This document shows, piece by piece, positions 24,136 through 63,908 of a stretch of 64,000 nt of DNA. How positions within the stretch are numbered: the stretch's first letter is position 1; every line of letters begins with the position of its first letter. The translations under genes and the position numbers were made by a program. The stretch is from Gnetum montanum (taxonomy: Eukaryota; Plantae; Gnetophyta), in the NCBI GenBank assembly GCA_015680685.1, contig MNCI01000614.1:594868-658867 (forward strand), written 5' to 3'. The notes beneath the pieces are model-generated. The model had not been told where the DNA came from and did not search any database. It saw nothing but the letters and a program-made list of their open reading frames with translations.

Positions 24136-24280
24136 GCCAATGCAGTGAAACGAATTTTCCATTTTAGCACCCTGAGTAATGTGGGATGCCCTGTCTAGCA
24201 TAGCGTTGGCATGTCGCAAACTTGCGATAGCGTAGCATTCCTATCTGGAAATAAATGGGCCCAACTGAAAATTTTTCCTC

Positions 24281-24597
24281 ACCTTAAATTAGAAACCTAC
24301 CCACACGAAGCTTTCACTCCATAGTTTGTAAATACCTTAAACTAGTGACATTTTATGAAGCCTACCTATTAACGGTCCACAAAGACCTTAAACTAGCAGC
24401 TTTACCTAAAAACCACATCACGATCTGCGAAGACCTTAAACTAGTAACTTCACTTAAGAACTTGTTAATGGTTTACAAAGACCTTAAACTGATAACTCTA
24501 CCTTTATGAGCTATTAATGGTCCACCATGATCTTAAACTGGTAAAGTTAATTACATGTTCGAACCTACTCGTAGTCCACCAAGACCTTAAACTGGTA
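24281..24597 (+). repeat. Hairpin-motif array A, copy 1: GGTC-N6-GACC-TTAAACTRG with ~25-30 nt variable spacers, 6-7 units
   Basis: Read directly, e.g. ggtc cacaaa gacc ttaaactag at 24374. Confidence 0.9.
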
Positions 24598-28193: not shown

Positions 28194-28213
28194 TGCAAAA
28201 GCAAGGTAAGCAC

Positions 28214-28512
28214 CATAGTCTGCTATGACTATAAACTGGAATCAGCAGTTTTCCATGACTATAAACTGGCATAGATAGTCTACCATGACTATAAAATGGC
28301 ATAGAACATCTACTATGATGTTAAACTAGCATAGACGGTCTGCTACGACCTTAAACTGGCCCATCCACCATCTGCTATGATGATAAACTAGCACAATGGT
28401 CTGCTAGGACCTTAAACTAGCACAATGGTCTACTAGGACCTTAGACTAGCATTGTGGTCTACTAAGACCTTAAGCCAGTGTATCAGACGGTCTACCAGGA
28501 CCTTAAACTAGG
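28214..28512 (+). repeat. Hairpin-motif array B, copy 1: 10 units of ~30 bp just after the integrase stop
   Basis: Stems agtc/gact, catc/gatg and ggtc/gacc around 6-nt loops, each followed by wtaaactrg. Confidence 0.92.
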
Positions 28513-31344: not shown

Positions 31345-31445
31345 CCATCGAAGAGCAATGTTGGTATCTTTTCTTTCATGGTGTTTCATATTCTTTGTCG
31401 ATGTCTATTGGGCGAATGCTCCAGACATCCACAAAGAGGGGCTAG

Positions 31446-33328
31446 TAAAACACCATAAAATTTTAGGACTCTCATGTTTTAGTAGAGTTTTGAAAATTAG
31501 AAAAGGATTTCCACAAGTGTAGCATCATGATCATTCATACTGGGGGTACACTATCTAGTTTGGCAAGTTTTCTACCTCCAAGGAAAACAGGCTCATCGGA
31601 CTCTCTAGCCTGCCCAACTGAACAATCGACCCAGCTGACAATTTATGTAGAAACTAAGCTAGAAGTTATTGAAAGTGTTTGGGATGAGCAAAATAGTTTG
31701 GCAAGTTTTCTAGCAAATAAGTCTGCTACAGTGTGGTACGCTATGTAGTGTAGCAAGCCTTGAAAAAATAGTTGCTTAAGTGTCCAAGTGCAAGTTGACG
31801 GAATGATTGCAAAACAAGTCAAAGATTCGATCAACATAAGGTGTTGTGCTATCCTATGCTATGCTATGCTACGTAGCGTAGCATAGCGTAGCAAGGACAA
31901 AGTAGAAAGGCCTAGCTTGCTAGCTTGCTAAGTGATTCCAATAAGAAATTTTCACTAGGAAAACACTCCGGCCTCCAAACCGGTTGCCTTGTGTAGCACC
32001 AAGCCTTGAGCAAAGCTTCTTGCTAGAGAATGGCAGATTAAACGAAAAAGCAAGATACATTAGCTACTACGCTGTGCTATGCTACATAGCAGAGCAACAA
32101 TGCAAAAGCAGCAAGGGATTTTCAAACATTAGTTTAGCAAGTTCAAAGGCTTCCCGACACAAAATACAAGAGTTGTAGTTGTTAGCATGACTAAGCTTCA
32201 GACATGTTTTCAACTTTAGCACAAGTTCTAGTCAAAACTAGTGGCTACGCTATGCTACACTATGTAGCGTAGCACAACATAGCAAGCAGCCACTTACACT
32301 ATGCCAATGAACCTGAATAGTGTGAGTAATACAACACTGGTACAAAAGCATCAAGACATCTTTAGGTAGTTCTAGAACTTGTTGACAACAATCTTCCTCA
32401 CTCTAGCATCTCCTTGGCGGAACTAGCAATTTCACTCCATTTTGCAAACTCCTTGGCTAGCTGCTGAAACATTGTTCCTATGCTTGACCCTGCTCGTAAA
32501 AGAAGGAGAGACATAGTCCTAGAGAATAAGATCCATTTTTGTTTGCAATGATATCCCACTAATCTCATCACATACAGTCTCAAAGGTATAGTCACAGCAT
32601 AGCCAAGTTCATGTCCAACATTGCAAACCTACCCAGTACAAGCACATTTGCATTTTGTGGGGTCCAAGACACATGGCATCTAGGCCGCATTTCTCGCCTA
32701 CTCCTGGCCCTATAAATACCTTGGAAAACAATGCTCAAAGGGTTGGATTTTTTGGGGAGGTTACTATTTTGTTTAGAGAGTTGGCATTTTTTTACATCGA
32801 CAAGAGCAATTGGCTTGTTGGCTTTTTGCATTGGCTGGTTGGCTTCTTGATTGGCTTCTTAGCAAACGGAGTTGGATTTCTTGCTGCTATTGGCTTTTAA
32901 GCTAGCTTCCAGAAGGTGTAGTTGGCATCTTCCTTGAGCATTCTAGTTACCCTTGAGTTCTTTGTGTGTCTCCGGCATTGTATAACCTATTGTACACTCA
33001 AACAAGGCAAAGAATCAAATATGCGACCTTGGGGCAGTGCATTTTCTCACCTGATTTTGTTTTATTATTTCTTTGTTGTTATCGTTGTTTTGCACTGTTT
33101 TCTCCTTTCTGCATTTATTGTCCATCGATTTACCTCTCACATCTCACTCTCGAAACAATGTTTACGTAAGGTTAAGATACACTGACTAAGTTCCTGTTCA
33201 ATTAACTAGATCATTCAGGGTGCCCCACTTCCATTTTTCTCTAGCACGACCCTCGCATAGATCCAAGGTTAAACTGTTCATCCAATAGCCTCTCGATGTT
33301 CTAGCCATCAATGTTTTTAGTTGCTATA
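31446..33328 (+). repeat. Central shared LTR of the tandem Tat element
   Basis: Preceded by PPT aaagagggg and followed by a PBS; homologous to 47629-49489; TATAAATA at ~32711. Confidence 0.92.
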
Positions 33329-33333
33329 GTTTT

Positions 33334-33350: not shown

Positions 33351-33499
33351 CCTTTTGGTGCCTTTTCTATGTCCTACGGGTAGTCTTGCATGCTCTCTAT
33401 ACCCTTTCACACACTAGCATAAATGTGACACCCTTTCGTGGTTTTTTACACATTGTGTGATGCATATTGGTATCAATGACAGTTCCTTTGGATCCTGAT

Positions 33500-36400
33500 A
33501 GGATGAAAATCCTTCGATCCCCCATCAATTTCTGTGCTACTTGTTTATGATCTCCTCTTTTTACCATGCAAGATAATTCTAACAACAACCACTACTTCCA
33601 GCTTGAGCCTTGAGGCTCCTTTCTCGGCCCAAAGCACCATGTGTGCTGAGTGGCCACCTAGCCTGGTGCTATGCCACACCAATCCCTTAGGATTCAACAC
33701 ATGTCACTCGAGTTCTTGGTAGAAGATGTAGAGCATTATGAATTTATCTACACAAGATCTAGGTAGATCTACCCCTAGATCCCCCTGATGGAGACATATC
33801 AGTGGATCTTTGATCAATTGCTATGAGTCAATAGGCCTAGGGAGTGGGACAAGCTATCCAATTGTGATGAAGCATTCTAGGATAAGCAGGAAGATCTAGA
33901 CTCCTAGTCCGAGGGGGGTGATCAAACTTACCCTGTGACCATCCCTTCTTCCATAGCATTCATATCAAACCCCCTTTTTGTGGTGACTCCCTTTATGATC
34001 ACCACAAATCCACCTTAATCTATGCTCTCATCAGCCATGGGCAGCCATCCTACACCCTCAATGTATCAACAGGCACCTCCCTCAATTTCATACCCAAGCA
34101 TTCTCCCCCCCATTTTTTCCATCCTCATATTAAGCACCGGTTACACCCACGCTATCCTACATACACACCGCTTCTACTTCACAATTTCCTAGAGCCTCCA
34201 CTCCTCTCTCATCCTTTGCATCTATTCCATCATCAGTGGTGGGTCTAGCCCCAACTGCGTGGTGAACCCCATCCACTTCGCTCCCCCCCTCGTAGCCCCA
34301 CCAGATCTCACATCACTTGTATTACCAAGCATATCAGGCCCTGCAGGTGTCACAACCAAGCACGGGGCTATGCCCCATTCCATCGGTCATGCAAATGACC
34401 AACCCTACACACCACTAGCAACCACCACTTCACTAGCACCACTCACTGGGTGGTGGACCTCAAAAATTACACCCTTCACAAGGGCAGCTCCAATGGCTCT
34501 TGCTATGGGCCAGGATTCTGCCCTTGCTATGCCACAAATGATAGTTGCCCCCACAACCCTGCAACCGTATGTGTTGTCTCTAGGATTAGATCAAGTGTTT
34601 CAACTTATCCAGATCCTCATTGAATAGGTTAAACACCTCAAGGCCGTTCGTTCTAACATGGTTCAGGTCATGGATTTCTACCATGATGACCCCATTAGCC
34701 TAGTGGTTCCCATGCTTACATTACCCCTTGGGATGCTGCTCCCTCAATTTATAGAATACAATGGGGAGGGCGACCCAAATGCGCATTTGGTTACATTCAA
34801 GTTTGAGTGCTTATTGTTGCAACAATGGCCGCATACCATTATTCACATCTTTACTATGTCCCTGATAGGTAAAGCTTTAGATTGGTATCACAGACTCCCA
34901 TGCTCCTCCATCTCAACATTGGAGGAACTGCTTACCTAGTTCATGACCCACTTTAAGTATAACTTGAAGCCCAAGGTCATGCTAGATCAGTTGATGGGAG
35001 TTAAGCAAGACCTACTAGAGTCAATGCAGAGGTTTATACAGCAGTGGAGTGCCACCTTTAATGAGATCCGTGAGCCTATCACGAAGGCCCATTTGTTGGC
35101 CATCTTCAAGGGAGTGGTAAATGATTTCATTAAATCCAAGCTGTATTACCTAGCCCTAGGATCTCTCAGCCAAGCTTTTTCACAGATAAGAAGCATTCAA
35201 GATGCGGTCAAAGCTAGCAAGAACCTAGCCTATGTTGCATATAAAAGCACATATACTAAAAAAGGACAAAGAGAAGGGCAAGGTCGCAATGACCACGGTG
35301 GTCACAATGGCAAATGAGGCCAAGTCCAACAACAATAATAAGAAAGTGGCCACAGCACCAACTAACCCCTTGCATACACCAAGCAACGTTGCACAACCCT
35401 CCACATTGACACTAGAAGTGCCCACCCCACCTAAACCTAATTTCAAGCATAAAGATTGCTCCAAGTACACCCCACTACCCATCAAGCCTTCATAAATTCT
35501 GAAGCAATTGCTAGGGGCGGGGTACATTCAGCATAAGCAGATGTTAAAGGAGGCAACCAAAAGGCATCAATGATATTGCGAACTTCTTAGGAACCCCTCC
35601 TTGGCTATGTCCAACGAGCCCCCAGTTCGTAAAAACTTCAGGCTAGAGTGGTTCTGGGACTACCACCAACTTTGTGTTCATGACACGGATTACTGTCTAG
35701 CCTTAAAAGATGACATTCAATGGATGATTGATCATGGGAAGTTGATGCTAGATGAGAGTAATCCCATCTACCCTAAAAATCAATCCATGCATGTTTACAA
35801 GGACCTACTCAATGCTAACGATGTGGCGTACATCATTAACATGATTGGTGTAGATGGTAATCTGGAACCACCACAACAACCGTTTGTGATTCGTGTACCT
35901 CAACGCAGGGTAGCAACACCAACAACGGCAAAAAAGACAGCACAACAAATTTTTGTACTTAAGGTCCCTCCTCGAACATCTGCCCCCACACCTTTTGTAG
36001 TCAAAACCACACCACCCCTCACACTAATGCACCAAACCCCATTCATCATTATGGGGCCAAAACACTTAAGTATCCCCATTCCCAAAACCAGTGTAAAATG
36101 GCATCACAGCCTTCTCGTTCAAGGAAATGGGAAGAGTGTCTGATAGGTGAAACAACTACAGAAAGTACCACCCAAAGTCCTTCCAAGCCTACTCCTTTAT
36201 CCTCTGCATCTATGCCCACCTTGTCACCAAAATTTAACACCGCTACACATGCATGATCATCGCCACCTTACTCGAAAGGATCTAGCCCCAAACCTGAAAC
36301 TGCTCCTCCTTGGGAGATCTGTCTTCTAGGAAAAATGGAGGAAGAGAAGGGTGGTAAGCAACAGGAAGGTGGAAAAGACCTCTTAAGTGATTTTAGTAAG

Positions 36401-37290
36401 GTAAAACAGGCTCTAAAAAAAAGAACACAACACTGAGCCTGTACGACCTCGTAATGACTTCCACCGCACATCGTGAGGCTTTGATTCACATGCTAATGTC
36501 CATACCAGTTGATGAGAACATGTTGGCAGAAGAGAAAGCAATCCATTCAGTTATGCTTTCTTCTATGCTTGAAGAACTGCAGCCATCCCAATTGACATTC
36601 TGTGATGAGTCCATTAAGGAAGACCCTAAAAAGGATCAGGCAATCACAACATCCCTGTTCATCACAATTTGGATTGATAAACACAAGATTTGAAGAGTAC
36701 ACATTGATGATGGGGCTGCTACAAATGTCATCTCATTCCCCATGGACAAACTAGGTTTGGTAGACCAAATCAAACCCACGACAACATCATGTCTGAAGTC
36801 ATTCAATGGGGCACGAGTAATGGTGAAAGGCACTATCCACATTGACTTTGTGGCAGGGGACTAGTTCCCCACAAGTGCGATGTTTATCATGGTGGAAGAG
36901 ATGCCCAGGTTTAACCTAATCTTGAGGAGATCATGGTTAGCCCAACTCAGGGTTGTCTCTTCATCCATACATCAGGAAATCTATTTACCTTATGCAGACA
37001 GGGAGGTGGTGATACATGGTGACGAGATGACAACCCAGGCAATAAATAACGTAGACATAGAGCAAGGTTTAGAGGTCATAACCTCTGAGAATGAGGCACC
37101 TATTTCTACCGATACTAACTATTTGACAAAAGAGCCAGCCCAAGATGTTGACTTAGAAAATGAAACTGCATGGGCCAAGTTGCCTTTTCAAGTGGTAGAC
37201 GACGATGCAGAAGAATACCGCAACAAAGCCTCTTAGCCTTATGTGTCGCCAAGCCCATGATGGGTTAGAAAGTAGTTGCAAGAATTATCG
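33500..37290 (+). pseudogene. gag: Tat gag-protease, copy 2
   Basis: YNGEGDPNAHLVTF..SLIGKALDWY (retrotransposon gag); YHQLCVHDTDYC knuckle; protease VHIDDGAATNV and FNLILRRSWL. Homologous to 60094-63490. Start and end are approximate. Confidence 0.9.
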
Positions 37291-37437
37291 TTACTCATGT
37301 AGTGTAACAACTCCACTACACCTTACCTAATTAATGCCCATTATACATTTTTCCCTATTTTCTTCACATTTCCTCATTTACACTAAGTGTCTAACTTATT
37401 CTTTAAATCATTCACATGTCCTCCATTTTTATTATGC

Positions 37438-37622
37438 CACAGCTTGTTAAGGCCTAAAACTGACAAAATGTTTTCTTTACCATCATCACCATGGCCCGAA
37501 ATAGTGTAAAACTACACAGCTCGAAATGGCCTAATTACACATGGCCCAAAATGGCCTAAAACTAGTGATAGCCCAAAATGACCTTAAACTATTGCAATAG
37601 CCTGAAATGGCCTAAAACTAAA
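37438..37622 (+). repeat. Hairpin-motif array C: GGCC-CGAAAT-GGCC-TAAAACT-like, ~6 units
   Basis: e.g. atggcccaaaatggcctaaaactag at 37541. Confidence 0.8.
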
Positions 37623-37908
37623 ATGAGACGTTCCAAATGAATTTTATATTTCAATTTTTTTCTTTCATAAATTAATAATTTTTGTCACATTAATCGAATC
37701 CAAATAAATTGGTTAGCTGCTACCCTATGACCCTCCACCTATTCCATCATTTTCTACATCAGTAGACCCCATCTTTTCATCTAGAACCTACACCATAAAA
37801 AAATGAACTAGTCAGCTAAAGTCACCATAAAGACTCCAACAAAATAAATTGACGATGCACCAAAGGGTAATTGATCCAAGATAGACTCGCATCTATTTCT
37901 GGAGGTAT

Positions 37909-40900
37909 TCAATCAAGACCTACCACCAGGCATCGTAAGATATCCTCTTCCATGATGTCAACCCAATTCCTGTCACCCAAATCAGCACTTGTAGCAACTT
38001 TCTCCTTCTCCATGGATTTCCATCTTGGGGGTCTAGGAGAAAAGGCAGCAGTGGTGGTCTCACCCACAGGAAATGTCACTTTTCTTTTGGGGGACTCACT
38101 CACTATCACTTGTTGCATGAACCTGTCATAAGCCCTAGAAGCATCAATAATATCAAGGAACACCTCATGAGTATGTAACTTGACTGAGGCATCCCTGTAT
38201 TGGTTATGATAGGTGGCACGTTCTAGCTTATACATATGCTTATGATTTTTCTATGCTTGCCCCCATTTGTAAACCTTGGTGATGTAATCTTTCTAGTCTT
38301 GATTCTTCTGGGCTAAGAGGTCCATTTGCATGCACTACTCTATTATCTCACAGGTGGCATCATTGTTGCGTCACACAGCAGTCCAGTACCTTACGTAGTC
38401 AATGATAACTATGCCCCAACTACCATTGTTGGTGTCCCGAGCCAACAAGAATTTGTTCCCGGAATGGAGAACTCCCACCTCAGTGGTCAAGTTCGCCTTC
38501 TCCTTCTCAAGCCTCTAGACTTATTTCTAGAGGTATTTGTTCATGCGCTTGCATTCCCACAAGGAGCATGCCGAGTACAAAGCACATTGGCTTGCCTCGT
38601 CGTATACACGATGAGGTACTTTAGTTACCTTCAGTGAAAATTCAGGCATAGTGTCGACCTTAATTGCTCGCTTAGGGTCCCACTTGAGACGAGAAGCTGC
38701 CAAACAACAAAAAAGAAATGCATTAGTCAGAGAGGCATAGTGAATACAGGGACAATGTAGAGTCTAGCGTAGCATTTTAGCTTACCCACTTTTGGATAGA
38801 CTTTCCTTACACGGTCAATCATGTCATTGACTACCCCTTTCATAAAAGTAAATTTGTCAGGGGTTTCAGTCTATATTTTTTAGTTAGAATATAGAGAACT
38901 TCTTCTCCCTGTTCTTCTTCTTCTTCTTCCTTCACTGATAAAGCATAGTTGTAGTAAGTAAACTATACTAACTTGAAGCAGATGCAAGCGTTAGCCAAAA
39001 AAATAAATAAATAAAATTAAAAAATACTTACCAATTGGAGGCTACACTCTACGAAGCTTAAATTGCAACTTCTTCCCCCTCTCTTCATTAGTACAGGGGG
39101 TCTCGTCCACAGGGCGAGACCTCTTGCATTATAGCTTTGTTATCACCATCTCTGTAATGAGGCATTCCCCCCTTATCACACTACTGGTGGTATTGGGGGG
39201 TGCCTCTCCCATGTTGTCCTTGGCCTGAAAGTTACGTACCACCCGGTCCCTGGTCGTCATTGAGAATGACTCCTCGATAGCTTCTGGGGGGTCTTGAGAT
39301 CGAGTGGTACGGAAGACTTGGTAGATGCATGGTTTGGAGATCTAGCTACGATCCTGCAGTACCCAGAACCCATTCTCATGGACTACCAAGAATTCCATAA
39401 AATGGCATAGGTAGGCTATGAAAAAGGCATGGTACAGATTGAAATGGGATTCAAGCTTCCCTTGAAGCTTAACCATCTTAGACTACATGCCTCTGTAAAG
39501 ATGCTTGGCCCAATTATAATAGGTCCCTTCTTCCATGACTTCCATTATTATTCGAGCCTACTCAATCCCAATGATTTTTCCTTGGGATAGTAGCTTGGGA
39601 AAGGCACAAGCACAGAAGATAGGGTAAACCATTTTGGCCACCCATAACCTGGCTTTTTCCATATAAATCCCCTTTCAGTCCTTTGTAGCCCCTAGCCACT
39701 CCTCGATGTCCTCTTGATTGTGTGCATCTTTCTTGGATTTTTCTCCCATGGGGAGACCATTAGGGGGGACATTGAAAAGATGCATGAATAATTGATTTTA
39801 ACATCAAGTACCATGTGCACACCATAAACACGTGTGCGGAAGCGGTCTACCTTTTCGGAGAAGGAGTCGGCTAGGGAAAGCATCACAGCAGGTGGGACAC
39901 TCGGGTTAATAGCCAAAAATAAGTCCATAAGCCTAGCCTCCTAAAGGTTATGGACCAGTGTGGTTGGGGCCTCATTGCAGAGTCAGCACTGGGTCTTCTC
40001 CACCTCCCTGTACTTAAAGAAGAGGTTGGTCTCGTTGTGTCTGGAGGCAATCATAGTCACCTCATAGGATTTCTTCGCTACTAAAATGATTCGCAAAAAA
40101 AATGAAAAATAAAAAGAGAAAGAGGGTTAGCAAAACATAAACATTACTCAAAAATTTAGCAATGAATGCACACTTTAGCGTACTAGGTTTGAACAACATG
40201 GGAAATGGTGGAAGATCCACCAAAACGTCTTCAACGGTGAGTGGCCTGAGGGATGCCCATTCCCTATTCAACTAACCGGCTTGTTTACATTTTCCATAAA
40301 ACTGGGAATACCAAGTTGGATAGGTTTTGAAATCACCTCCAAATTGGCCTATCACATCGGTGCACACATTCCTCATGGAGGAAAACTCCCGTAAGGCCAT
40401 CTGTGCCAACACCAAGGTGTTTGTGTCACTGCGAAGACCACTCCTATCAATAAAAAAAATGGTAATATAAAAAATGAATACATACATTGTTAACACCTGT
40501 GTCTAGCATAGCATGGATTACATGACAATACCTTTGTAGAACTCACCCGTCGGCATAGTAAATTGTTCCAAGTGGGTTCTGGAAGCAGGTGCCCATGTGG
40601 CAGGTGACAAAAAAAGTGTTGTATAGGTGGTAGCACTTATACTCAGGCATTTCCTAGATCCAACTTAGGTGTCTCAGGATTTTTGGAGACTAGTTGGAAC
40701 CTTTTTCCTACTCGCCTCCGATTTACCCATCAGTCAAAAATTTTGGAATACCTCGGTTTGCCCCAGGCAATAGGTTTTCTGTGATTGCGACTACTGTCTT
40801 CACCAATAAGTGTGACCAAAAAATCACACTAAAGTACTGGAGGAGGAACTGTAGGAAGTCCTAGGCACCTTCACAGAACTAGACCACCTACCACTCCACA

Positions 40901-41925
40901 CGTGCATGGGGAGGAGGGACATTAGCCACCAGTTCACTTAGGCAGCACAAGACTCCTACAATTTCCAAAACAATGAAAATGGGTTTCAACATAACCCTGC
41001 ACCAACGAAGAACCAAATGGTAGCACTATGTACAAGCAAAGTTTACATGTAGCATAGCACAACCCTCACATTAAATATAGTGTAGCATGACATTTTCATT
41101 GCATATAGTGTAGCAAGATTTTACAGTCACAAAAAAAATGCAAATAAACAACAACAAAGTAAGCTTTGCAGCGTAGCATGGTCATAAAACTGCATACAAT
41201 GCAACAACACTTAGATGACATGTGATGTAGCAAATAAATAGGAATAAGAAGGCATGCAACAACAATGTAATTAGAGTATTACTACAACAAGCATAGTAAT
41301 ATTGCAAGCTTAACAAATTCAGCAACGCAGCGGTATTGTAGTCTTAATAGCATGATGATATGACAAACCTACTAAACCTTGTAATGTATTGGCATACTGC
41401 AGTAAAATCATTACAAAGTGTAGAAAATTAAGAGTTCACTGAGCCACAACCATCCCAACCATAATTTAGCTGTATAAAATAACTCGCATTGTACTGCACT
41501 AAACACCTATTTCGTCTGTCAAATTGTGCAGAATGCCAAAACCCTCTCAAATGCAGTGCACTACACTAGCCATACTCTAAGTGGGCTAGGCTTACCCAAA
41601 CCCCTGCAACAAGGTAGTCACAGCAATGGTAGCCAAGGCGATGCTACATGTGGCCATAGCATAGCATCCATACAATTGTTGTGGCCAACTAGTGATGATG
41701 GCAGTGTAGCAGCCAAAAATGGTGACCAAAATGAGTGGAGAAAGATGCAGATTTCAACAATAACAATTACAAAACTCTAAACAACAAAGATAATGTAATA
41801 ACTTACCAAGTGGACAAATTCTCCTCTCATACTGCAATGTGCACCTGAGTTAGGCACCCCAAAGTGTCCTTGACTTCATCCACTTTAGTGAGCCCTCAAT
41901 GCTTATGTTCACTGTTGGGTGCCAT
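37909..41925 (-). pseudogene. Antisense multi-exon PMD-like accessory gene, copy 2
   Basis: ATG at 41925; donors at ~41806 and ~40547. Splicing ..IYYADG|SGLRSDTN.. keeps the frame. Most of the acidic exon is deleted relative to copy 1. Confidence 0.7.
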
Positions 41926-42057
41926 CAGTGCACTCGTAGATGTTGTCGGCCACTACGCTACATTGTTTCACTTTCTCTCGGCACAATCGCACTACACTCT
42001 AGATGTGGGCTCTATGCTCTAATAGTGAAAACAAAAAATTTACTAGAGGTAAACCCC

Positions 42058-42065
42058 TATTTATA
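42058..42065 (-). promoter_or_regulatory. TATA box of the antisense gene, copy 2
   Basis: Minus-strand ggcTATAAATAgggg. Confidence 0.7.
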
Positions 42066-42094
42066 GCCAATGCAGTGAAAAGAGCCATTTTAGC

Positions 42095-42412
42095 ACCTTA
42101 AATTAGAAACCTACCCACACAAAGTGTACACTCAATGATCTACAAAGATCTTAAACTAGTGAAATTTTATGAAGCCTACCTATTAATGGTCCGCAAAGAC
42201 CTTAAACTAGCAGCTTTACCTAAAAACCACATCATGGTCCACAAAGACCTTAAACTAGTAACTTCACGTAAGAACCTATTAATGGTCCACAAAGACCTTA
42301 AACTAATAACTTTACCTTTATGAACTATTAACGGTCCATCATGACCTTAAATTGGTAAAGTTAATTGCATGTTTGAACCTGCTCATGGTCCGCCAAGACC
42401 TTAAACTGGTAA
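42095..42412 (+). repeat. Hairpin-motif array A, copy 2
   Basis: ggtc cgcaaa gacc ttaaactag and similar, 6-7 units, period ~48-54 bp. Confidence 0.9.
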
Positions 42413-42537
42413 CCTACCAACTTGGCCAAATGTTTGACAATCAGCACATGTTTCATTATTTCTTTGCTAATGTTTATTGTTATGCACTATAGCTTCAAAC
42501 TATTATCACTTGACCAGGCTTCTTCTTATTGTCGCAG

Positions 42538-45500
42538 GTTGGACAAGATGGCCATGTAGTGCAATTTACATTTGCCTTTAACCTTGACACATCCTCATGG
42601 AAAACTTGCAATATATATGAACCTAGAGTCGGTAGACTAGAATTCATCTACTGATAACATTGTAACATCCCTAGAAATGTCCCTAGATTAGCCTGAACAT
42701 TTGGTTCAAGTGTTAGACTTAGAGGTTGGGGATGTGACTGAGGACCCTCTCATTGAAGCACCAGTAACGACATCCAGGGGGGAAATAAAGACACTAAAAC
42801 TAAGTTTTCTCCTAGATTAACAAATACAAAAAGATATGTCTAGAGTCCTTCAAGACAACACCAAAGTATTTTCATGGTCTTACAATGACATGCTAGGTTT
42901 AGATCCATGGCTAAAACAACATAACATTGTATTAGACCCACGTGTCAAACCTGTTAAACAAAAGGCTCATAAGATTAAACCAGAAATTGCACTAGCCATA
43001 CGTGATGAAATCAAAAAATTATACCAAGAAGGTTTCATTTGTGCAGTTGACTACTTGGAATGGGTGTCAAACATCGTTGTAGTCTCTAAGAAAATGGGAG
43101 GGATACAAATCTGTATAGACTTCTGGGATTTGAACAAGACAACAATTAAAGATGACTTCCCACTACCAAGTATCGACCAGCTTATCGACACTATGACTGG
43201 TCATGCTTTACTATCCTTCATGGATGGGTTCTTTGGTTATAATCAAATTTACATATATATCCAGAGCATTAGTTGACAACCACTTTCATGACCCCTTGGG
43301 GTACCTTTTGTTACACCATGATGCACTTTGGTGTAAAGAATGTCAGAGCAACTTATCAATGAGCCATGGCCTACATCTTTAGTGACTACCTTCTAGAGAG
43401 TCTAAATGATTACGTGGATGACATAGCAGTCAAATCTAAGATGCATATTGATCATCCCATTGATCTAGATGTAGTCCTAAAACATTTTCATAGGCATCGC
43501 TTGTGAATTAATCTAGAGAAGTGTGTTTTCGACGTAAAAATTGGATGCATGTTAGGGATTGTAGTATCTGAGGCTAGAATACGAGTGGACCCTGATAAAG
43601 TTAAGGCCATTGTTAACCTAGAAGCCCCTACTAACCTTAAAGAATTGCACGGGTTGCAAGGTAGAGTACAGTTCATCAAAAGGTTTATAGCAAGGTTGAT
43701 TGACAAGTTACACCCCATGCAACACTTATTAAAGAAGGGGGTTAAGTTCGAATGGACAACATTATGCCAGCAAACCTTTGATGACCTGAGGAAAGAGCTT
43801 TAATACCTCTCGACTGTGTACCCACCATAGAGGGATAAGCCTTTCTACATCTACCTTGCAACCTTGGACACATCTATCGTAGCGCTGTTATGCAAAAAAA
43901 GAGAAGATGGATCTGAGATCCTAGTCTATAACTTGAGCCACACATTAATAGCATATAAAGCTAAATACAATGAAGTGAAAATGAATTGCCTCACTTTAGT
44001 GTTCACACTACAAAAGTGAAGACACTACCTATTCCCCAACCAAGTGAACATCATATGCAAAAGCAACATACTTTGGGCTATCATGAACAACTTGTATGAA
44101 AGTAGTAGGATAGCTTGATGGAAAGAATTAATAGTGCAATTTGATTTACACGATATAGCCCAATCATCAACGAAAGGACAAGCAATAGCTACTCAGCTTG
44201 CAACCTCACCCGTTGATGATTAGGCAATCATAGAACCCAAATTCCTTGATGAACGTGTTGGTAGCATCAACCTTGTACCATTACATTTTAAGGCCACCTT
44301 GCATTTTGACGATGCCTCTACCACACGAGGTGGTAGTGCTACCACTGTCATTACATTCCCCTTGGGGGACATGCAACCATTCATTTATTGCTTCATGTTC
44401 CTTTGTACAAACAATGTAGCTAAGTACGAAGGACTCCTCAGGGGCCTCTTAGTAGCCCAGCAATTGAAAATTTAACATTTGACAATTTGAGGAAACTCGC
44501 AACTTGTTTTCAATCAAATCATTGAGGTCTACACTTGTAAAGCTTCACATTTACAACCTTTTTTTTGATTTGACCAAAAGCCTATTACAATGGTTCACCA
44601 CAACAAACATCCAGCATGTGCCATGCAATGAGAACACCATAGCCAATGCCTTAGCTATGCTAGCATTAAATGTGTCACTACATCTATTCATGATCCTACC
44701 TACTTTGATAATAGAATGCATAGACCCTATCACCCACGTAGTACACGTGGCTTCTATAAGTGCTACCAACACCCAAGAGTGATAGGCTAACGTGAAAGCC
44801 TACCTGTAACATGGTGAACCCCCACATGGCTTGACATCCATCCAAAGGGATGCAATTTGAAAGAAAGCACAGCAGTATGTCCTCGTAGGAAATGATACCT
44901 TATGTAAATGCTCCTTTAATGGGATATTGTTAACTTGCTTTGGTGGGAAGGAGGCACAAAAAATTGTTAGCAAAGTCTATGAAGGACTATGTGGAGGACA
45001 CATAGCTCCTAGGGCCAAGGCAACTAAGATTAGATGCCTAGGGTATTGCTGGCCTCTCATGGAATGCAATTGTTTTGCTAAAGTCAAGATGTGTGACACG
45101 TGCCAACATCATGCAAATCTTATATGCATGTCACCTACTAGGTTGCACCCTACATATATCACGTGGCCATTCCAATGATGGGGACTAGATATCATAGGAC
45201 CCATCACACCTAAGTCTTCCATAGGACATAGCTTCATCATTACTACCACCGAGTACTTTATGAAGTAGGCAGAGCCTATACCCCTAAGGAAAACTACATC
45301 CTAATAGGTTTTCCACTTCATCTTAGATAACATCGTAACAAGGTTTGGTCTTCTCATGACTATTGTGACAGACAATGGGCCACAATTTAGTAATGCAGAA
45401 ACCAGAACCTTTTGTAGCAACCTTAGCATTAGGCAATCTTTCTCATCTCCATATTATCCACAAGCTAATAGTCAGGCAGAAGCAACAAACAAGGCCATCA

Positions 45501-46021
45501 TCAACTTGCTTAAAAGAATTCTTAGCAATAGCAAGAGGTGATGGCATGAGAAAATCCTCTATGTGCTCTAGGCCTACCGTACGATATGTAGGATGGCCAT
45601 AGGTAAGATCCCTTATAGCATAGTCTACGGATCTGAAGTAGTGTTACCCCTTGAATTGTAGGTACCATCACTATAGATTATGCTTTCAAGCATCATAAAT
45701 GAAGCCTGGAATAATGAATCAAGGATCATTGATCTCAACTCCCTAGAGGAAGAGCATGCATAGACACTGGGTTGAATCGAATGGTATCAGGACATGCAAC
45801 GACAAAAGAATCATGTAGACCTACATCGACGGCTGATTAAAAAGGGGGACCTAGTTCTCAAAGCTATGTGTGAACATGTGGAAAATTTTTCAGAAAACTA
45901 GGAAAGTCCATTCATAGTCATAAAAGCCTACAAGAATGGAGCCTTCAAGCTGGTAGACATGCACAGTAGAGAGTTTGCAAATCTCGTGAACCACCTATAC
46001 TTGAAGTTGTACTTCATCTAA
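42538..46021 (+). pseudogene. pol: Tat pol RT-RH-aRH-INT, copy 2
   Basis: WVSNIVVVSKK, DDFPLPSIDQ, SFMDGFFGYNQI, YVDD, aRH, INT IVTDNGPQF. Confidence 0.95.
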
Positions 46022-46041
46022 TGCGAAAGGAAGGTAAGCAC

Positions 46042-46369
46042 CATAGTCTACTACGACTATAAACTAGCATCCATAGTCCACTACGACTATAAAATGACAT
46101 CAACAGTCTTCCATGACTATAAACTAGCATAGATAGTCTTCCATGACTATAAACTGGCACAGAACATCTACTATGACGTTAAACTGGGATAGATGGTCCG
46201 CTACAACCTTAAACTGGCCCATCAACCATCCACTACAATGATAAACTAGCAGAATAGTCTACTAGGATCTTAAACAAGCACAACGGTTTACTAGGACCTT
46301 AAACTAGCACTACGGTCTACTAGGACCTTGACCAGTGTAACATATGGTCTACTAGGAAGTTAAACTGGG
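46042..46369 (+). repeat. Hairpin-motif array B, copy 2 (11 units)
   Basis: Same structure as 28214-28512 with one more unit. Confidence 0.92.
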
Positions 46370-47628
46370 TTTGCGGCACAACCTTCTTAGCTCACAATCC
46401 ACAACCATTCAAACAAGTGAGCATGCATAGTGTTGATGTAGGATGGAGCATTGTAGTCCTAGAAAGCAGTCCATGATGATAAGAAAATGTCCTCTGGAAC
46501 ATATGTGATGCCACTGCCCCTGGCATCTTGCTGATCCTTTGGAAATGTCATATGACATCTTGCTAACCTTCTAGAGCTATCGCTGCCACAGCCCGTCACC
46601 CTGGTAGTAGCTTCTATTGTTAGTACCTACTGTTTGAGTCCCAACACTATTGTGGCTAAACCACAAGGTCACTACACTCTAGCCCCCGCCATCATCCAAG
46701 CTCAAAAGATGTTTAGCTGTTAAGCCTCTCACCTTACAGCTGAACTACATGATGTTTTCCTTGCATGGGGACTCTTAAGCACTAGCGTCACTGCAACTCC
46801 TAGACCCCTCAGTGCCAACCCCTCTAGCCTTTCATTACCATAACCTCTTATGGCCTTCCTGCTTTAGATGTTTCTTTCCTTAGCAACAATGCCTGTCACC
46901 TTAGTGATGTCTAAAGCAAGTAAGACCTTTGCCTAACTACATCTTATGGTTACATTTCTCTGGTCTACTTTCTGTTGCGCTTGTAGGGTATGGGCCGAGA
47001 CGGTGTTGGTTAGAGATGCATTTCACCAAGAGAATAGGACACCACATCATTTCGAGGTGACTACTCTAACTAGCTTAGCTACGTGGGAGTGCACATCCTA
47101 CCACTCTCCTTTAACCTTCATCATCTATCTTCTCACACCTGTAGTTCCCCTTTTCAAACCCCTTTTACAAGCTTTCTTGACATGTGTAAAGTCCTCCCAT
47201 ATGCTCAAGCCAAAGTCCATGACGTGCGTAATGCAACTTGCCACATGGTAAGCATCTGTAGGCAGGTCAAAGCCCCACATGGATGTAACACAACTCATCC
47301 CAGGGAGGAAAGACCTGTCCTACAACAACAAGGTTGTTTGCAAATGAATATGGTTAAATGGCAAAAGAAAAGAACACAAGCATAACAGAGCTAAAAAAAA
47401 GCCAAAAAGAGAGCTAAAAAAAGGGCATGTGCCCAAAAAAAATGGTACATTGGCTGTCTTACAATGACCATCTCTAAGTGTCCTAACGAGAGGTACTCCC
47501 AAGCACAGCAAAGAGACATCTGAGCAACCACCGAAGAGTGATGTTAGTGTCTTGTCTTTCATGGTGTTTCATATTCTTTGTCGATGTCTATCGGGTGAAT
47601 CCTCCAGATGTCCATAAAGAGGGGCCAA

Positions 47629-49489
47629 TGAAACACCATAAAATTTCAGGACTCATGTTTCAGTAGAGTCTTGAAACTTAGGCAAGGATTTCCACAAGTG
47701 TAGCATCATGATCATTCATACTGGGGGTACACTATCCAGTCCGGCAAGTTTTCTACCTCCAAGGCTAATAGGCTCATTGGACTCTCCAGCCTACCCAAGT
47801 GAACAATTAACCTGGCTGACAATTTATGCAGAAACTAGGCTAGGAGTTGTCAAAAGTATTTAGGATGAGCATAACAGTTTCGTAAGTTTTCTAGTAAAGA
47901 AGTCTGCTACGCTATGCTACGCTATGCAGCGTAGCAAGCCTTGAAAAAATAGTTGCTTAAATGTCCAAGTTTGAGTTGATAGAATGATTGCAGAACAAGT
48001 CAAAGATTCAATCAGCACAAGGTCCTACGCTATGCTACGCTACGTAGCATAGCACAACGTAGCAAGGATGAAGCAGAAAGGCCTAGCTTGCCAAGTGATT
48101 CCAATGAGAAAGTTGCACTTGGCAAACACTCTGGCCTCCAAAATCGGTTGCCTTGTTTAGCACCAAGCCTTGAGCAAAGCTTCTTGGTAGAGAATGGCGG
48201 ATTGAACGAAAAATTAGGATACACTGGCTGCTACGTTGTGCTATGCTACATAGCATAGCAAAAATGCAAAAGTAGCAAGGGATTTTCAAACGTTGGTTTA
48301 GCAAGTTCAAAGGCTTCCTATTGTAGTTGTTAGCATGACTAAGCTTCAGACATGTTTTTAGCTTTAGCACAAGTTCCAGTCAAAACTAGTGGCTATGCTA
48401 TGCTACACTACGTAGCGTAGCACAGCATAGCAAGTAGCTACTTACGCTACACCAATGAACCTGAAAAACGTGAGTAACACAACACCGGTACAAAAGCATC
48501 AAGATGTCTTTCGGTATTTCTAGAACTTGTTGACAACAATCTTCCTCACTCTAGCATCTCCTTGGTGGAACTAGCAATTTCACTCAATTTTGCAAACCCC
48601 CCTGGCTAGCTCTTGAAAAATTGTTCCTATGCTTGACCCTACTTGTAAGAGTAGGGAAGACATAGTGCTAGAGCGTAAACTCCATTTTTGTTCGCAATGA
48701 TAGCCCACTAATCTTAGCACATACAATCTCAGAGGTATAGTCACAGCATATCCAAGTTCATGTCCAACATTGCACACCTACCTTGTATGGGCATGTTCAC
48801 ATTTCGTGGGGTCCAGGACATGTGGCATCCAAAGCCCATTTCTCGCCTGCTTCTGGCCCTATAAATACCCTGGCAAATAATTCTCAAAGAGTTGGCTTTT
48901 TGGGGAGGTTGCTCTTTTTGTTTAGATAGTTGGCATTTTTTTACATCAACAAGAGCAGTTGACTTGTTGAATTTTCGCATTGGCTGGTTGGCTTCTTGAT
49001 TGGCTTCTTAGCAAATGGAGTTGGCTTCTTTGCTGCAGTTGGCTTTTAAGTTGGCTTTTAAGCTAGCTTCTAGAAGGTGTAGTTGGCATCTCCCTTGATC
49101 ATTCTAGTTACCCTTGAGTTATCTGTGTGTCTCTGGTGTTTTATAACCTATTGTACACTCAAGCAAGGCAAAGAATTGAATCCGCGACCTTGGGGCAGTG
49201 CATTTTCTCACCCGAGTTTGTTTTGTTATTTCTTTGCTCTTATTGTTATTTTGCACTATTTTATTCTTTCTACATTTATTGCACATCGATTTACCTCGCA
49301 CATCTCACTCTCAAAACAACGTTTACGTAAGGTTAAGATACACTGACTAAGTCCCTATCTAATTGACGAGACCATTCAGGGCACCCCACTTTTGTATTTC
49401 TTCGACATGGCCCTCACATAGATTTGGTGTTAAATTTTTCACTTGGCAACCTCTTGGTGTTCCAACCACTGACGTTTTCGGTCGCTACA
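47629..49489 (+). repeat. Rightmost LTR of the tandem Tat element
   Basis: PPT aaagagggg, then tgaaacacc...gtcgctaca. Confidence 0.93.
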
Positions 49490-50396: not shown

Positions 50397-51179
50397 TGAT
50401 GAGTGGCAAGATACCCCTACACTCAACCATATGAATACAAGCATTTCATGCATGATCTGGTCGAATTCCAAGGACTAAGTGCTTATGCACCCTTATGGAA
50501 CAAGGACAGGTTGGTTGATAGTTGTCTTCCCAAGCTTACCTATATGTCACAATTGTATGGTTAAGTAAACTTGAGGCATATGATTTTTATAGCTTTTATG
50601 TTTTTATGTCCTATGCTAGTAGGGAAGGAAAGAGGTAACTAAGTGACTAATTTAACTTAACTACTCATTCACTAAGTTCTAAATAATCCTAACACCATCA
50701 TCCATTCCCACTTTCCATACACATCCTAAACCAATGCAACATTGCTGAAATTACCAAACACTAATCATTACTGGGTTACCAAGCATTACACGTATGCTCG
50801 AAGTGGTCATTCTTGTGTAATTTAACGATTTTCTTAATTGATAAAAATGAATTAATATGGTAATAACATAAATGTAAAGTGCATAAAATAAAATAAAATA
50901 AAATAAATGCATAAGAAAATAAAATAAAAGAAATGCATAAGAAAACAAATCTCAAGTGCTGCAAGGATGAATCAAAGAGCTTGTCTTTATTGCCATACAT
51001 AAGGTGTGCTCAAGTACACAATGCTCAAATAAAGATCCATCCACACTTAGACCTCTTGTTGCGGGCACTTGGAAAATACTCTAACTTTCAAATAGACTAC
51101 AAGAGTTTAGCTACTTGACTGCTAAAAGACTTCTCTCCAATTGTGCACCTGGGCACTATATTTATAGGCTTGGGAACAA

Positions 51180-59993: not shown

Positions 59994-59998
59994 GTTTT

Positions 59999-60093: not shown

Positions 60094-63000
60094 ATGGAAT
60101 CTTCCCAAGTCAACCCAGTAACACTACCAATTGCTTCAAACCCTATGACTGCTACGGAATCCATAACCGTCACTGAACACATAAATCCTCAAGGCCCTAC
60201 ACGCCAATCCCTCAGGCTACAAGGCAAAGGCCCCATTCATGCAACTCTTACACCTGAACAATATAATTTTATCTGTGTTAAGATCCAAGCCAACCTACCC
60301 ATTGATCGTATGGAGAGGGAAGCTAAGCGAGAATATGAATTCATCCACAAAGGAGGACATGAGTTTATCCCTTCAGCTTTTGACATAATCCCACTATCTG
60401 AAAACCATCATAAACTCATATCCCAACTTCTCATGGTTAAAAATCAAGCCTTACAACTACCTCCCATAGAGCCTCAAGATGAAGAAGATGACTTTGCAGC
60501 CCAATATGAACATGGAGAATCTTACCATACTATTAGCCCCCATGTCCACACAAACCTATTATGCCATCCTCTCCTAGAAGAAAATATGTTTCCTTCTTCA
60601 TCCACAAACATTCAAGCACATGTTCCCCATTCCATCCCTATCTTCTCCATGCTCAATAACATTCACTCTGATGCATCCACTTCCATAATTCCTCCACCAT
60701 CGTAGTCTCAACAACTCCCCCAAACCAACACAGGGTCAATCCTCCAACCTCAAGTGGGTGAAATACCATCAGTCATACCAGCTTCTACATCTACCCATTA
60801 CATACCCAGACACAAATTCATAGGGCACCATTGATTACTCCTACCCAACATATTCAAGGTATTACCTCACAACCTATGGTTGGGCAGTGGGTTCCACCCA
60901 TAGTCTCAGTCCCGAATACCATCCCACCACAACAAATGTTAGCCCAACAACATGCTTTTCCACAAACAATGCAACAATTAAACCATTATCATCCACAATC
61001 AACTCAACCCATTGGTTTGCCTACCGCCCAAGAATGGGCAGACACACAAAAAATGATGCACTCATTGGCAGAAGAATTAAAACGCCTTAAAACCTTCAAC
61101 AATGAGGAAGTCAAGGTACTAGATTTCTATCAAGATGACCCAATTGACCCCTCAGTTCCACCCTTGACCTTGCCAAAAGGAGTCTCATTACCTCAACTGA
61201 CCAAGTACAATGGAGAAGGGGACCCAAATGCCCACCTAGTAACATTTAGAACCGAAAGCCTTTTACTTCAAGCATGGCCCCATGTAATCTTGCGAGTGTT
61301 TGCAATGTCCTTAACCGGAAAAGCCTTAGACTGGTACCGATCTCTACCCCGTAGCTCCATATCTTCTTTAGAGAATTTGTTGCATCAATTTGTCACCCGT
61401 TTCAAATACAATCTGAAACCTGAAGCCACATTAGATAGCTTGATTCAAATTAAACAAGCGCCATTAGAGCCAGCACAGAAATTTATCCAAAGGTGGAGTG
61501 CAGCCTTAAACGAACTTCATGAACCTATCCTCGAAACATATTTACTCACTATCCTTAAGTCAGCCGTGAATGACTTTATTAAGTCAAAACTTTACTACCT
61601 AAAAGCCCGCACATTGAGCCAAGCATTTGTACAAATCAAAGACATAGAAGAAGCGGCACAAACAAGTAATGACCCAGCCTACTCAACCTTTAGAAGCCAA
61701 CACATAAGGAAAGATAAACCCAAAACAATGGTAGCAGCAGTGGCTGAGGGAAAACAACCCACTATCCTAAACAACTATGAAAGAACAACACCCACTCATA
61801 CACCTGAAAGCTCCTCAAATAGAAATAACAACATAGGTCATGCACGTACCTTCGAAAGAAAAGACCCTACTCAGTACACACCATTGCCCATGAAGCCTTC
61901 ACAAATGCTTGATCAACTTCTAAAGGCTGGGTTAATTCAACATAAACAAATGTCTCCTGCGGCCTCACAAAGACATGATCGCTTTTGCGAATTGGCCAAA
62001 AATCCAGCCTTAGCAACACCCAACGAACCCCCTATCCCAAAAGGCTTTAGGTTGGATAGGTTTTGTGAGTATCATCAACGGTGTGGTCATGGGACTGATT
62101 ACTGCTATGCATTGAAGCAAGACATACAACGCATGATAGATGGGGGTGAAGTAGCATTCGACGAGACAAACCCAGTAAGGCCCCAAAATCAATCCATGGG
62201 GGTCTATAAAGATCCTCTCAATACCAAAATCAACGATGCCCCATATGTGATTAATACTATCCATATGGAAAACAGACAAGACGTCCTGCAAAAACCTTTT
62301 GTGATCCGTGTGCCTCCCAGTAAGGCAAGGATTCCCCTAGCCTCCACAAACAAGAGGCCTCCCTTTGTTATCAAGGTACCACCCCAGGCACCCACAACAC
62401 CCTTTGTGGTCAAGGCTCCACAGACATCGTCCGCTAAGACGTTAAACTGGCATGATGCAGCAACAAAAACCGCTAAGCAACCTTTCGTCATAAGAGTGCC
62501 ACAACGAGATGACCCCTCACCTACCCAAAGCCCAATAGTGGACAACATCTCGATCCCTCCTCCTCCAAGGGTTGACCCCACTAGCAACCCGACTAGGCCC
62601 ACCAAATGGGAACGTAAGCACCTCACAACTCCCATGACCGAAGCAAAGGCCACAACTAGCAAACAACAACTGAACACTGGGGCCCCTACCCCCAAGCAAA
62701 CCAAGCCTAAGTCCCCCTCCCGAGAGGTCTATCTCTCAAGCTTCACGGAGGAAGTTAAAACGAACACAATAGCTAATGACAAGGACTTCATAGCTGCACT
62801 AACCCAAGTAAAACAAGCGCTAAAACAAAAGAATACAACGATGAGTTTGTACGACCTGGTCATGACTTCAGCCACTCACCGCGAAGCCTTGGCTCAAACA
62901 TAGCATCCATTCCTATTACAGAGGACAACCCCGCAAATGAAGAATCCATCTGTGCAACGATTTCGCAACACACACCACAAGGATTGGGTTCAAATACCTT

Positions 63001-63857: not shown

Positions 63858-63908
63858 ATGGCCCAAAAGCCTTAAACTAGCTTATAGCCCAGAATGGCCT
63901 AAAACTAT
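63858..63908 (+). repeat. Two copies of the array-C hairpin motif after protease in the third element
   Basis: atggcccaaaagccttaaactag and atagcccagaatggcctaaaacta. Confidence 0.7.

What the first reader, a model, noticed from the sequence alone, without database searches (positions are those of the whole stretch)
42095..42412. Repeat-spacer array between the antisense promoter and the pol splice acceptor
Seen: a ~23-nt palindromic repeat GGTC-CRCMAW-GACC-TTAAACTRG recurs every ~48-54 bp, separated by ~25-30 nt spacers that are largely different from one another but conserved in order in copy 1 (24281-24597). The layout is CRISPR-like, but it is the same hairpin motif as the post-integrase array, with longer spacers. 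It sits immediately upstream of the antisense TATA and ~80-120 nt before candidate 3' splice sites. Inference: the motif is kept while the spacers drift, pointing to a multimeric binding platform that controls splicing or the antisense promoter.
Basis: partly seen in the sequence, partly recalled or inferred. Interest (0 to 1): 0.78.

Follow-up and report, generated by a model that had tools for sequence, protein, structure and literature searches.

The report
Conserved hairpin arrays in plant retrotransposon
This is not a CRISPR array but an old tandem repeat inside a plant jumping gene whose units keep one small hairpin-plus-tail motif while the rest drifts; the same motif recurs at three other places in such elements and likely works in the element's RNA as a repeated docking site for one of its own proteins, which would give these common but unexplained repeats a testable job.

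Summary
The array is real: six full units and one partial unit, period 48-54 bp, with the same units in copy 1. It lies in a decayed Tat/Ogre-type Ty3/gypsy LTR retrotransposon of a plant, in the 5.3-kb gap between gag-protease and pol that also holds an antisense multi-exon gene. It is not CRISPR: spacers are related to each other, match unit for unit in both copies, and no cas genes lie near. It is not a plain decayed minisatellite either. Between units, 0-1 of 17 stem/tail columns carry a transversion against 17 of 25 spacer columns. The motif (4-6-bp arms, 6-nt loop, AAACTRG tail) recurs on the sense strand in two more arrays with other periods and once inside a distant relative's gag, with about three paired stem changes. 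Best reading (0.45): repeated RNA stem-loops bound by an element protein, marking unspliced genomic RNA for packaging or export. Rivals: VANC-like DNA sites, splicing control, neutral repeat. No splicing or binding was shown. The scan noted this element layout before in this genome, and hairpin arrays in unrelated retrotransposons, but not this motif.

The parts
42094..42409 (+). Array B (the finding): 1 partial + 6 full units of arm(4)-loop(6)-arm(4)-WW-AAACTRG; full units start at 42137, 42188, 42236, 42284, 42333, 42387
24280..24595 (+). Array B of copy 1, same 7 units and spacer lengths
42058..42065 (-). TATAAATA box, predicted promoter of the antisense gene (copy 1: 24128-24135); this copy lacks about 116 bp between it and the array
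   Evidence: sequence motif only
37640..42030 (-). Decayed antisense multi-exon gene of unknown family; strong minus-strand donors at 41806, 40546, 39031, 38628 with orthologues at 23876, 22617, 21225, 20248; ends approximate
   Evidence: no family hit
42410..42537 (+). Predicted 3' end of the protease-RT intron: branch-like CTAAT 42467 and TTGAC 42510, YAG candidates ending 42492 and 42537 (45 nt apart in both copies)
   Evidence: predicted, no spliced read seen
42548..46021 (+). Broken pol: in-frame ATG at 42548, RT, RNase H, additional RNase H (RVT_3), integrase zinc finger and core
46031..46039 (+). Consensus 5' splice site candidate AAG|GTAAGC (GT at 46034; copy 1 at 28206), just after the integrase stop and 11 nt before array C
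   Evidence: predicted
46045..46368 (+). Array C, post-integrase, 11 units, period 29-32; arms AGTC/GACT, C(A/G)TC/GA(C/T)G and GGTC/GACC
28217..28511 (+). Array C of copy 1, 10 units (one unit fewer than copy 2)
37493..37620 (+). Array A, after gag-protease, period 23-29; arms (G/A)GCC/GGCC with the same tail
63858..63908 (+). Array A orthologue in a distant element (gag 64-67% identical to copy 2)
62428..62450 (+). Lone, perfect motif copy (CGTC/GACG arms) inside the gag ORF of the distant element; absent at the aligned place in copy 2
   Evidence: 33.3 bits, not in training set; best score in 40 shuffled windows 18.3
34193..37236 (+). Broken gag-protease of copy 2 (start approximate)
31445..33328 (+). 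LTR shared by the tandem copies (3' LTR of copy 1, 5' LTR of copy 2), PBS-like site at 33336; no motif hit
   Evidence: ends approximate
47629..49489 (+). 3' LTR of copy 2 after a polypurine tract at 47616; no motif hit
   Evidence: ends approximate

Best explanation
The array is an old tandem repeat inside a Tat/Ogre-type plant LTR retrotransposon whose units have kept a small inverted-arm motif and its 3' tail while the spacers drifted, and it likely works on the element's sense RNA as a row of stem-loops that dock an element-encoded protein (probably Gag, possibly the antisense accessory protein), which would mark unspliced genomic RNA for packaging or export. Shown: the repeat, its place, the unequal conservation, the recurrence of the motif in four sense-strand places, paired arm changes. 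Inferred: that the constraint is selection on RNA structure, that the 5.3-kb gap is spliced as in Ogre (so that arrays A and B are only in unspliced RNA), and the identity and purpose of the binding protein. Units were probably multiplied by slippage or strand transfer during replication; selection then kept only the bound part.
For: Constraint: best 13-column window 0.923 identity among 6 units in each copy; uniform-rate simulations reach it in 0/1500 and 2/1500 (copy 2) and 0/1500 and 0/1500 (copy 1). Columns with any transversion: arms+tail 0/17 and 1/17, spacers 17/25 and 17/25 (p 4e-6, 8e-5), so low CpG content alone does not explain it. Pairing: 117 of 132 arm pairs in 33 units of arrays B and C are Watson-Crick and 12 of the 15 departures are C>T/G>A type. 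Covariation over 36 units: outer pair GC 18/AU 7/CG 4, third pair UA 32/CG 3, flanking pair UA 5/AU 2; 19 both-side cells vs 5.6 +/- 1.8 shuffled, 0/500; slid controls 16-43% paired vs 79%. Asymmetry that suits RNA: an invariant loop A and a one-sided tail; all four places on the sense strand, no hit above 9 bits in either LTR; hairpin probability >= 0.5 for 21 of 36 units on sense vs 9 of 36 on antisense, and 6 of 6 vs 2 of 6 in this array. Unit spacing is not held in helical phase (4.6-5.1 turns in B, 2.2-3.1 in A and C). Family level: contigs of 4 DNA runs (4 organism labels, 3 studies) join motif units through other spacers and skip or repeat units (161 joint rows), with poorly agreeing loose ends (0.48-0.62) just 5' of units at 42176-42178 and 42273. 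[quoted passage not shown]
Against: The covariation rests on only about three independent events; units are paralogues and share ancestry, which the tool warns can beat shuffles without structure. Whole-array folding is not exceptional: z -3.43/-2.86 in this copy but -0.79 in copy 1, and 4 of 16 other non-coding windows of the element reach -2.86 or lower; isolated modules fold as well or better on the antisense strand in 9 of 10 cases. Stems are short (about -5 kcal/mol). G-U and A-C departures are equally common (5 vs 7), so the RNA-versus-DNA test is blind in these decayed copies. Array C would stay in spliced pol RNA unless the donor at 46034 is used; its acceptor candidate (46986) passes my filter in one copy only. 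The lone gag copy is not kept in copy 2. No good phase-matched donor for the protease-RT intron was found. Motif limits were chosen after seeing the data, and spacer columns were compared without gaps. No binding protein was identified.
Confidence: 0.45

Rival explanations
1. DNA-level binding sites: the motif is an inverted half-site pair (GYC-N6-GRC plus tail) for a dimeric, element-encoded DNA-binding protein, most likely the antisense gene's product, acting like VANC or TnpA to lift methylation or to drive the antisense promoter.
For: Element carries its own spliced accessory gene with a TATA box next to array B. [quoted passage not shown] Retand antisense TRP28 proteins are predicted to bind DNA and about half of the elements carry arrays (PMC11963269, abstract and passages). 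The motif holds CG/CHG sites and the host DNA is CpG-depleted. Palindromes suit dimers.
Against: Three arm types coexist in one array and change in pairs rather than staying fixed; loop A and tail are one-sided; all places share one orientation (only 4 independent places, 1 in 8 by chance); none in the LTRs; no helical phasing. VANC motifs are 8-9-nt and non-palindromic. The antisense protein matched no family.
Confidence: 0.2
2. Same RNA stem-loops, but the job is splicing control: a bound protein represses or promotes use of the nearby splice sites, or loops the ends of the 5.3-kb intron together, setting the ratio of Gag to Pol and of genomic to spliced RNA.
For: Array B ends 83 and 128 nt before two same-phase acceptor candidates; array C starts 11 nt after a consensus donor kept in both copies; array A lies about 260 nt after the protease ORF end. 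A retrotransposon accessory protein needed for export of unspliced RNA exists in C. elegans Cer1 (PMC10309623, abstract).
Against: No splice joint in 4 RNA runs (weak, reads mostly under 90% alike). The lone gag copy is not near a predicted splice site. The donor near array C was found post hoc (AGGTAAG occurs 6 times on + and 4 on - in the window).
Confidence: 0.17
3. Neutral by-product: hypervariable tandem repeats made by strand transfer or slippage, seeded from one motif and homogenised only where copies still match, with no function.
For: [quoted passage not shown] Spacers are homologous; unit number differs between copies in array C; between the two copies motif and spacer differ equally (p = 0.39).
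Against: Near absence of transversions in arms and tail over a span in which spacers approach saturation; paired arm changes; the motif kept in arrays of three different periods and alone in a gag ORF.
Confidence: 0.13
4. A CRISPR-like memory array that acquires foreign spacers.
For: Only the layout: a short hairpin repeat with 25-31-nt gaps.
Against: Spacers homologous to each other and identical in order in both copies; each matches only its orthologue in the window; no match in 50,697 phage records; no Rfam CRISPR repeat; only RT hits among 20 ORFs scanned with PADLOC; eukaryotic retrotransposon context.
Confidence: 0.01

Closest known systems
Ogre elements (Ty3/gypsy, OTA, Tat) with protease-RT intron and internal tandem arrays
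   Same: Domain order PR...RT-RH-aRH-INT; gag-pro and pol in separate frames with a non-coding gap; arrays after the coding region (PMC6317226, PMC7004042, PMC3305785 abstract).
   Different: Gap is about 5.3 kb, not about 274 bp on average; it holds an antisense spliced gene and two arrays; best RT hits are gymnosperm (Taxus, Cryptomeria, 54-55%); the passages read describe Ogre arrays as hypervariable, with no kept structural motif.
Retand/Grande/RIRE2 elements with antisense ORFs and tandem arrays
   Same: [quoted passage not shown]
   Different: There both lie between pol and the 3' LTR and the ORF encodes TRP28; here the gene lies between protease and RT, has introns, and shows no Pfam hit; Retand is reported only from eudicots and monocots.
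Repeated stem-loop packaging signals of RNA viruses and retroviral Psi
   Same: Many short stem-loops with variable stems and a common loop feature on the genomic strand; selection of unspliced RNA (PMC6281560 search listing and abstract start; PMC8096270 passages).
   Different: Here they are built as tandem arrays in non-coding gaps with a long conserved 3' tail; no binding or packaging shown.
VANC/VANDAL anti-silencing system
   Same: Element-encoded accessory gene; short motif multiplied as tandem repeats in several non-coding regions (PMC5735166).
   Different: DNA transposon; 8-9-nt non-palindromic DNA motifs; no paired changes reported in the passages read.
CRISPR arrays
   Same: Hairpin repeat and spacer-like spacing.
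   Different: Spacers are paralogous, no cas genes, no acquisition, eukaryotic host.

Membership tests
CRISPR array | Unique, mutually unrelated spacers | tested here: not met
   spacer similarity above all 300 shuffles in both copies
CRISPR array | cas genes nearby | tested here: not met
   119 ORF pieces, Pfam; 20 ORFs, PADLOC: only RT hits
CRISPR array | Spacers match other replicons / polar acquisition | tested here: not met
   plant viruses and the host genome were not searchable
CRISPR array | Processed small RNAs | not testable with these tools
   no small-RNA run among the 21 listed
Tat clade of Ty3/gypsy LTR retrotransposons | Additional archaeal-type RNase H (aRH) domain | tested here: met
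   RVT_3 hit E 3.9e-06 between RNase H and integrase; order (structure #1 of PMC10508981)
Tat clade of Ty3/gypsy LTR retrotransposons | LTRs, PBS, PPT, gag-PR-RT-RH-INT order | tested here: met
Ogre subclade | RT phylogeny, PBS type and eORF position | not tested
   no tree with reference elements was built; PBS tRNA not identified by a tool
Ogre subclade | Spliced intron between GAG-PROT and RT | tested here: inconclusive
   acceptor candidates present; no joint in 4 RNA runs with low, divergent coverage
Plain (neutral) minisatellite | Units homologous along their length | tested here: met
Plain (neutral) minisatellite | Even decay along the unit | tested here: not met
Structured RNA element (packaging/export signal) | Compensatory changes in the stem | tested here: met
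   about three independent events, phylogeny not modelled
Structured RNA element (packaging/export signal) | Bound by Gag or an export protein; needed for packaging/export | not testable with these tools
   needs bench work
Known Rfam family | Match at gathering score | tested here: not met
   no match on the arrays in 37000-47000 at E <= 5
VANC-type anti-silencing system | Accessory protein of VANC family binding the motif as DNA | tested here: inconclusive
   antisense ORF has no family hit; binding not testable

The most novel reading that the evidence does not exclude
Gymnosperm Tat retrotransposons run a retrovirus-like RNA sorting system: a hairpin-tail motif, multiplied into arrays inside the introns of the genomic RNA, is read by the protein of the antisense gene nested in the same intron (a plant Rev/CERV analogue) or by Gag, so that only unspliced RNA is exported and packaged; the 'junk' tandem arrays of Tat elements are then selected protein-docking arrays.
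Probability: 0.25. Interest if true: 0.8.

Novelty: new variant of a known kind. Interest (0 to 1): 0.52.

Why it matters
Tandem arrays in Tat-lineage retrotransposons are common, seed satellite DNA, and are stated to have unknown function (PMC11963269; PMC7004042); a recent review says RNA export of plant LTR elements has not been studied directly (PMC12786077, passages). A 23-nt motif with paired stem changes, kept in arrays of three periods and once in coding sequence, turns this into a direct test: one short oligo as RNA or DNA, stem-breaking and compensatory mutants, and two candidate proteins. If it holds, it names a cis signal for how the elements that fill giant gymnosperm genomes pick their own RNA.

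Tried and rejected
No whole genome is held for the window. Collections gave no relatives: RT query in viral contigs, 8 pattern hits, none confirmed; motif in viral contigs, 0; two-unit pattern in metagenome contigs, 20 loci, none similar to the element by blastn, one (L009) holds a distant RT: treated as chance. Antisense ORF: no Pfam hit at E <= 1, no homologue at near or longer lengths, two low-complexity repeat proteins only among 1.84 billion representatives: family unknown; no structure prediction was run. RNA: no RNA holder listed; 4 raw-read RNA runs laid on 32500-47500 gave 178-1293 reads, mostly under 90% alike, the bin with the array among the lowest (0-0.9), and no splice joint; strandedness of the libraries unclear, so no conclusion on expression or splicing. 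Contig depth peaks over motif units, the TATA region and the acceptor were not used as evidence: the tool states contig depth cannot rank parts, and the motif is multicopy. Whole-array folding z-score rejected as evidence. Copy-versus-copy conservation test was negative. Codon-position bias between the copies showed nothing even in pol, i.e. their differences are post-insertion decay. Literature: 8 searches listed no paper describing a conserved hairpin motif in Tat/Ogre arrays; most subscription papers are not held, the Ogre splicing paper PMC2596294 could not be read, Macas et al. 2009 was seen only as cited, and no supplements were opened (those of PMC6317226 and PMC11963269 may list such elements).

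Full report
Observation. The sequence at 42094-42409 holds seven copies of a 13-nt core, GACCTTAAACTRG, at spacings of 53, 51, 48, 48, 49 and 54 bp; the window has 37 matches at two mismatches or fewer against 3.27 expected. Six units are complete: a 4-nt arm, a 6-nt loop, the complementary arm, two A/T and AAACTRG. A second copy of the element has the same seven units with the same spacer lengths at 24280-24595. Tandem Repeats Finder already reports part of it as a 48-bp repeat.

Context. The window is CpG-depleted plant DNA. Two copies, about 86% identical, lie in tandem and share an LTR. Copy 2 reads LTR, PBS-like site, gag, protease, a 5.3-kb gap, then RT, RNase H, an additional RNase H and integrase, a 3' region, polypurine tract and LTR. 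That order places it in the Tat clade (PMC6317226, passages; structure #1 of PMC10508981, parts 1-2 of 3 read). The best RT hits are from Taxus and Cryptomeria at 54-55%. All genes are broken. The gap holds a decayed antisense gene: a minus-strand TATA box at 42058-42065 and four strong minus-strand donors found at orthologous places in both copies, against none shared on the plus strand there. Its protein matched nothing. An earlier scan note on another piece of this genome describes the same layout (e1-10288023).

Not CRISPR. Spacers are related to one another (mean score 13.9 vs 8.1 +/- 1.0, above all 300 shuffles; 11.5 vs 7.8 +/- 1.0 in copy 1), match only their orthologue in the window, match no phage record and no Rfam family. 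Twenty ORFs scanned with PADLOC gave only the two RT pieces. The array is an old tandem duplication.

Not an evenly decayed minisatellite. Among six units the motif is 83% and 76% identical, the spacers 55% and 53% against a shuffled floor of 48%. Uniform-rate simulations matched to the overall identity reach the observed best 13-column window in 0, 2, 0 and 0 of 1500 runs. To set aside methylation-driven transitions I counted transversions only: 0 of 17 and 1 of 17 arm and tail columns against 17 of 25 spacer columns in each copy. Limits were chosen after seeing the data and spacer columns were compared without gaps, so the p-values (4e-6, 8e-5) are optimistic. Against this, the two copies differ equally in motif and spacer (20/138 vs 18/165, p = 0.39); their differences show no codon bias even in pol, so they record decay after insertion and cannot show selection. 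Contigs from four DNA runs (four organism labels, three studies; 2650-4156 contigs laid each) join motif units through other spacers and skip or repeat units, in 161 joint rows of which 15 were shown; some of these may come from the other arrays, and many have short sides.

The motif is wider than the finding. It forms array C after the integrase stop (period 29-33; 11 and 10 units), array A after the protease (period 23-29), an orthologue of A in a distant element whose gag is 64-67% identical, and one lone perfect copy inside that element's gag ORF, which scores 33.3 bits on a matrix trained only on arrays B and C (best in 40 shuffled windows 18.3). All lie on the sense strand; neither LTR has a hit. 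The arms come in types that change in pairs: GGTC/GACC, AGTC/GACT, CGTC/GACG and GCC/GGC. Over 36 aligned units (unit 1 of array B in both copies and five degenerate units of arrays A and C were left out) 19 cells show both-side changes against 5.6 in shuffles, and slid controls pair 16-43% against 79%. These cells come from about three independent events. In 33 units of B and C, 117 of 132 arm pairs are Watson-Crick and 12 of 15 departures are of the deamination type, 5 G-U and 7 A-C. One loop position and most of the tail are nearly fixed. In context the hairpins form with probability 0.5 or more in 21 of 36 units on the sense strand and 9 of 36 on the antisense strand, 6 of 6 and 2 of 6 in this array; but isolated modules fold as well on either strand and the array's folding z-score is matched by 4 of 16 other non-coding windows.

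How it most likely works. Paired arm changes, a read loop base, a one-sided tail, one orientation and absence from the LTRs fit a small RNA stem-loop bound by a protein better than a symmetrical DNA site. Position adds a hint: array A follows the protease frame, array B precedes two same-phase acceptor candidates and an in-frame ATG at 42548, and array C begins 11 nt after a consensus donor kept in both copies. In Ogre the protease-RT gap is an intron spliced from part of the transcripts. If the same holds here, arrays A and B, and perhaps C, are present only in unspliced RNA, the form that must be exported and packaged; retroviral Gag makes this distinction (PMC8096270, passages) and a C. elegans retrotransposon uses an accessory protein for it (PMC10309623, abstract). 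The wording 'marks the unspliced genome' also stands in an earlier scan note on an unrelated element (e1-10641911) and is not independent support. I put this at 0.45, splicing control by the same RNA modules at 0.17, a VANC-like DNA site array (PMC5735166, passages) at 0.2 and a neutral by-product at 0.13. No splicing, expression pattern or binding was shown: four RNA runs gave thin, divergent coverage and no splice joint.

Comparison and novelty. Tandem arrays and antisense accessory genes are known in Tat elements (PMC11963269, part 1 of 5 and passages; PMC7004042, passages; PMC3305785, abstract), and their function is stated to be unknown. Eight literature searches listed no description of a conserved, covarying hairpin motif shared by several arrays of a Tat element; the library lacks most subscription papers and no supplements were read. 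A 2026 preprint on transposon-encoded regulators (10.64898/2026.08.24.746577, passages) covers DNA transposons only. The scan itself has noted hairpin arrays in other retrotransposon groups but nothing like this sequence. Verdict: a real, constrained feature; a new variant of a known kind; interest 0.52, because it makes an open question testable, while the mechanism is inferred from few independent events.

Noticed in passing
window 37640-42030 (-) and 19262-24135 (-): Antisense multi-exon accessory gene nested in the protease-RT gap; helical-looking domain near 39400-40100 and an acidic low-complexity exon (20422-21105 in copy 1, largely deleted in copy 2). By eye it recalls Transposase_32/ATHILA-type accessory proteins (recalled, not supported by any search).
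   Followed up: partly
window 46031-46039 and 28203-28211: Consensus 5' splice site just after the integrase stop, suggesting a 3'-UTR intron that would contain array C; acceptor candidate at 46986 in copy 2 only.
   Followed up: partly
window 19262-49489: Two copies in tandem share one LTR; copy 1 is cut at 19262 and its 3' region carries a 1.7-kb insertion (29678-31343) related to the LTR of the distant element at 59277-59993.
   Followed up: partly
window 58200-64000: Distant Tat element with the same PBS-like site (60001), a 713-codon open gag frame and the same post-protease array; its LTR region holds a 22-bp tandem repeat (58785-58931).
   Followed up: partly
window 47200-47640 and 37650-38090: Non-coding windows that fold better than shuffles (z -2.9 to -4.6), near the polypurine tract and the 3' end of the antisense gene.
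   Followed up: no
window 47900-48430, 31840-32280, 21130-21170: Many short TGCTACG/CGTAGCA-type words in both orientations in the LTR and flanks; a possible separate, DNA-level motif.
   Followed up: no
window 3400-3765 and 9279-11461, 53212-58220: Fragments of a Ty1/copia RT (RVT_2) and of another Ty3/gypsy element present twice in opposite orientation.
   Followed up: no
window 51174-51338: A 45-bp tandem repeat built of 12-bp and 21-bp sub-units.
   Followed up: no
L013:2249-2645 and L018:20-479: Unrelated metagenome contigs with regular short repeats (period 70 and 32-64) that matched the two-unit pattern; no similarity to the element.
   Followed up: no
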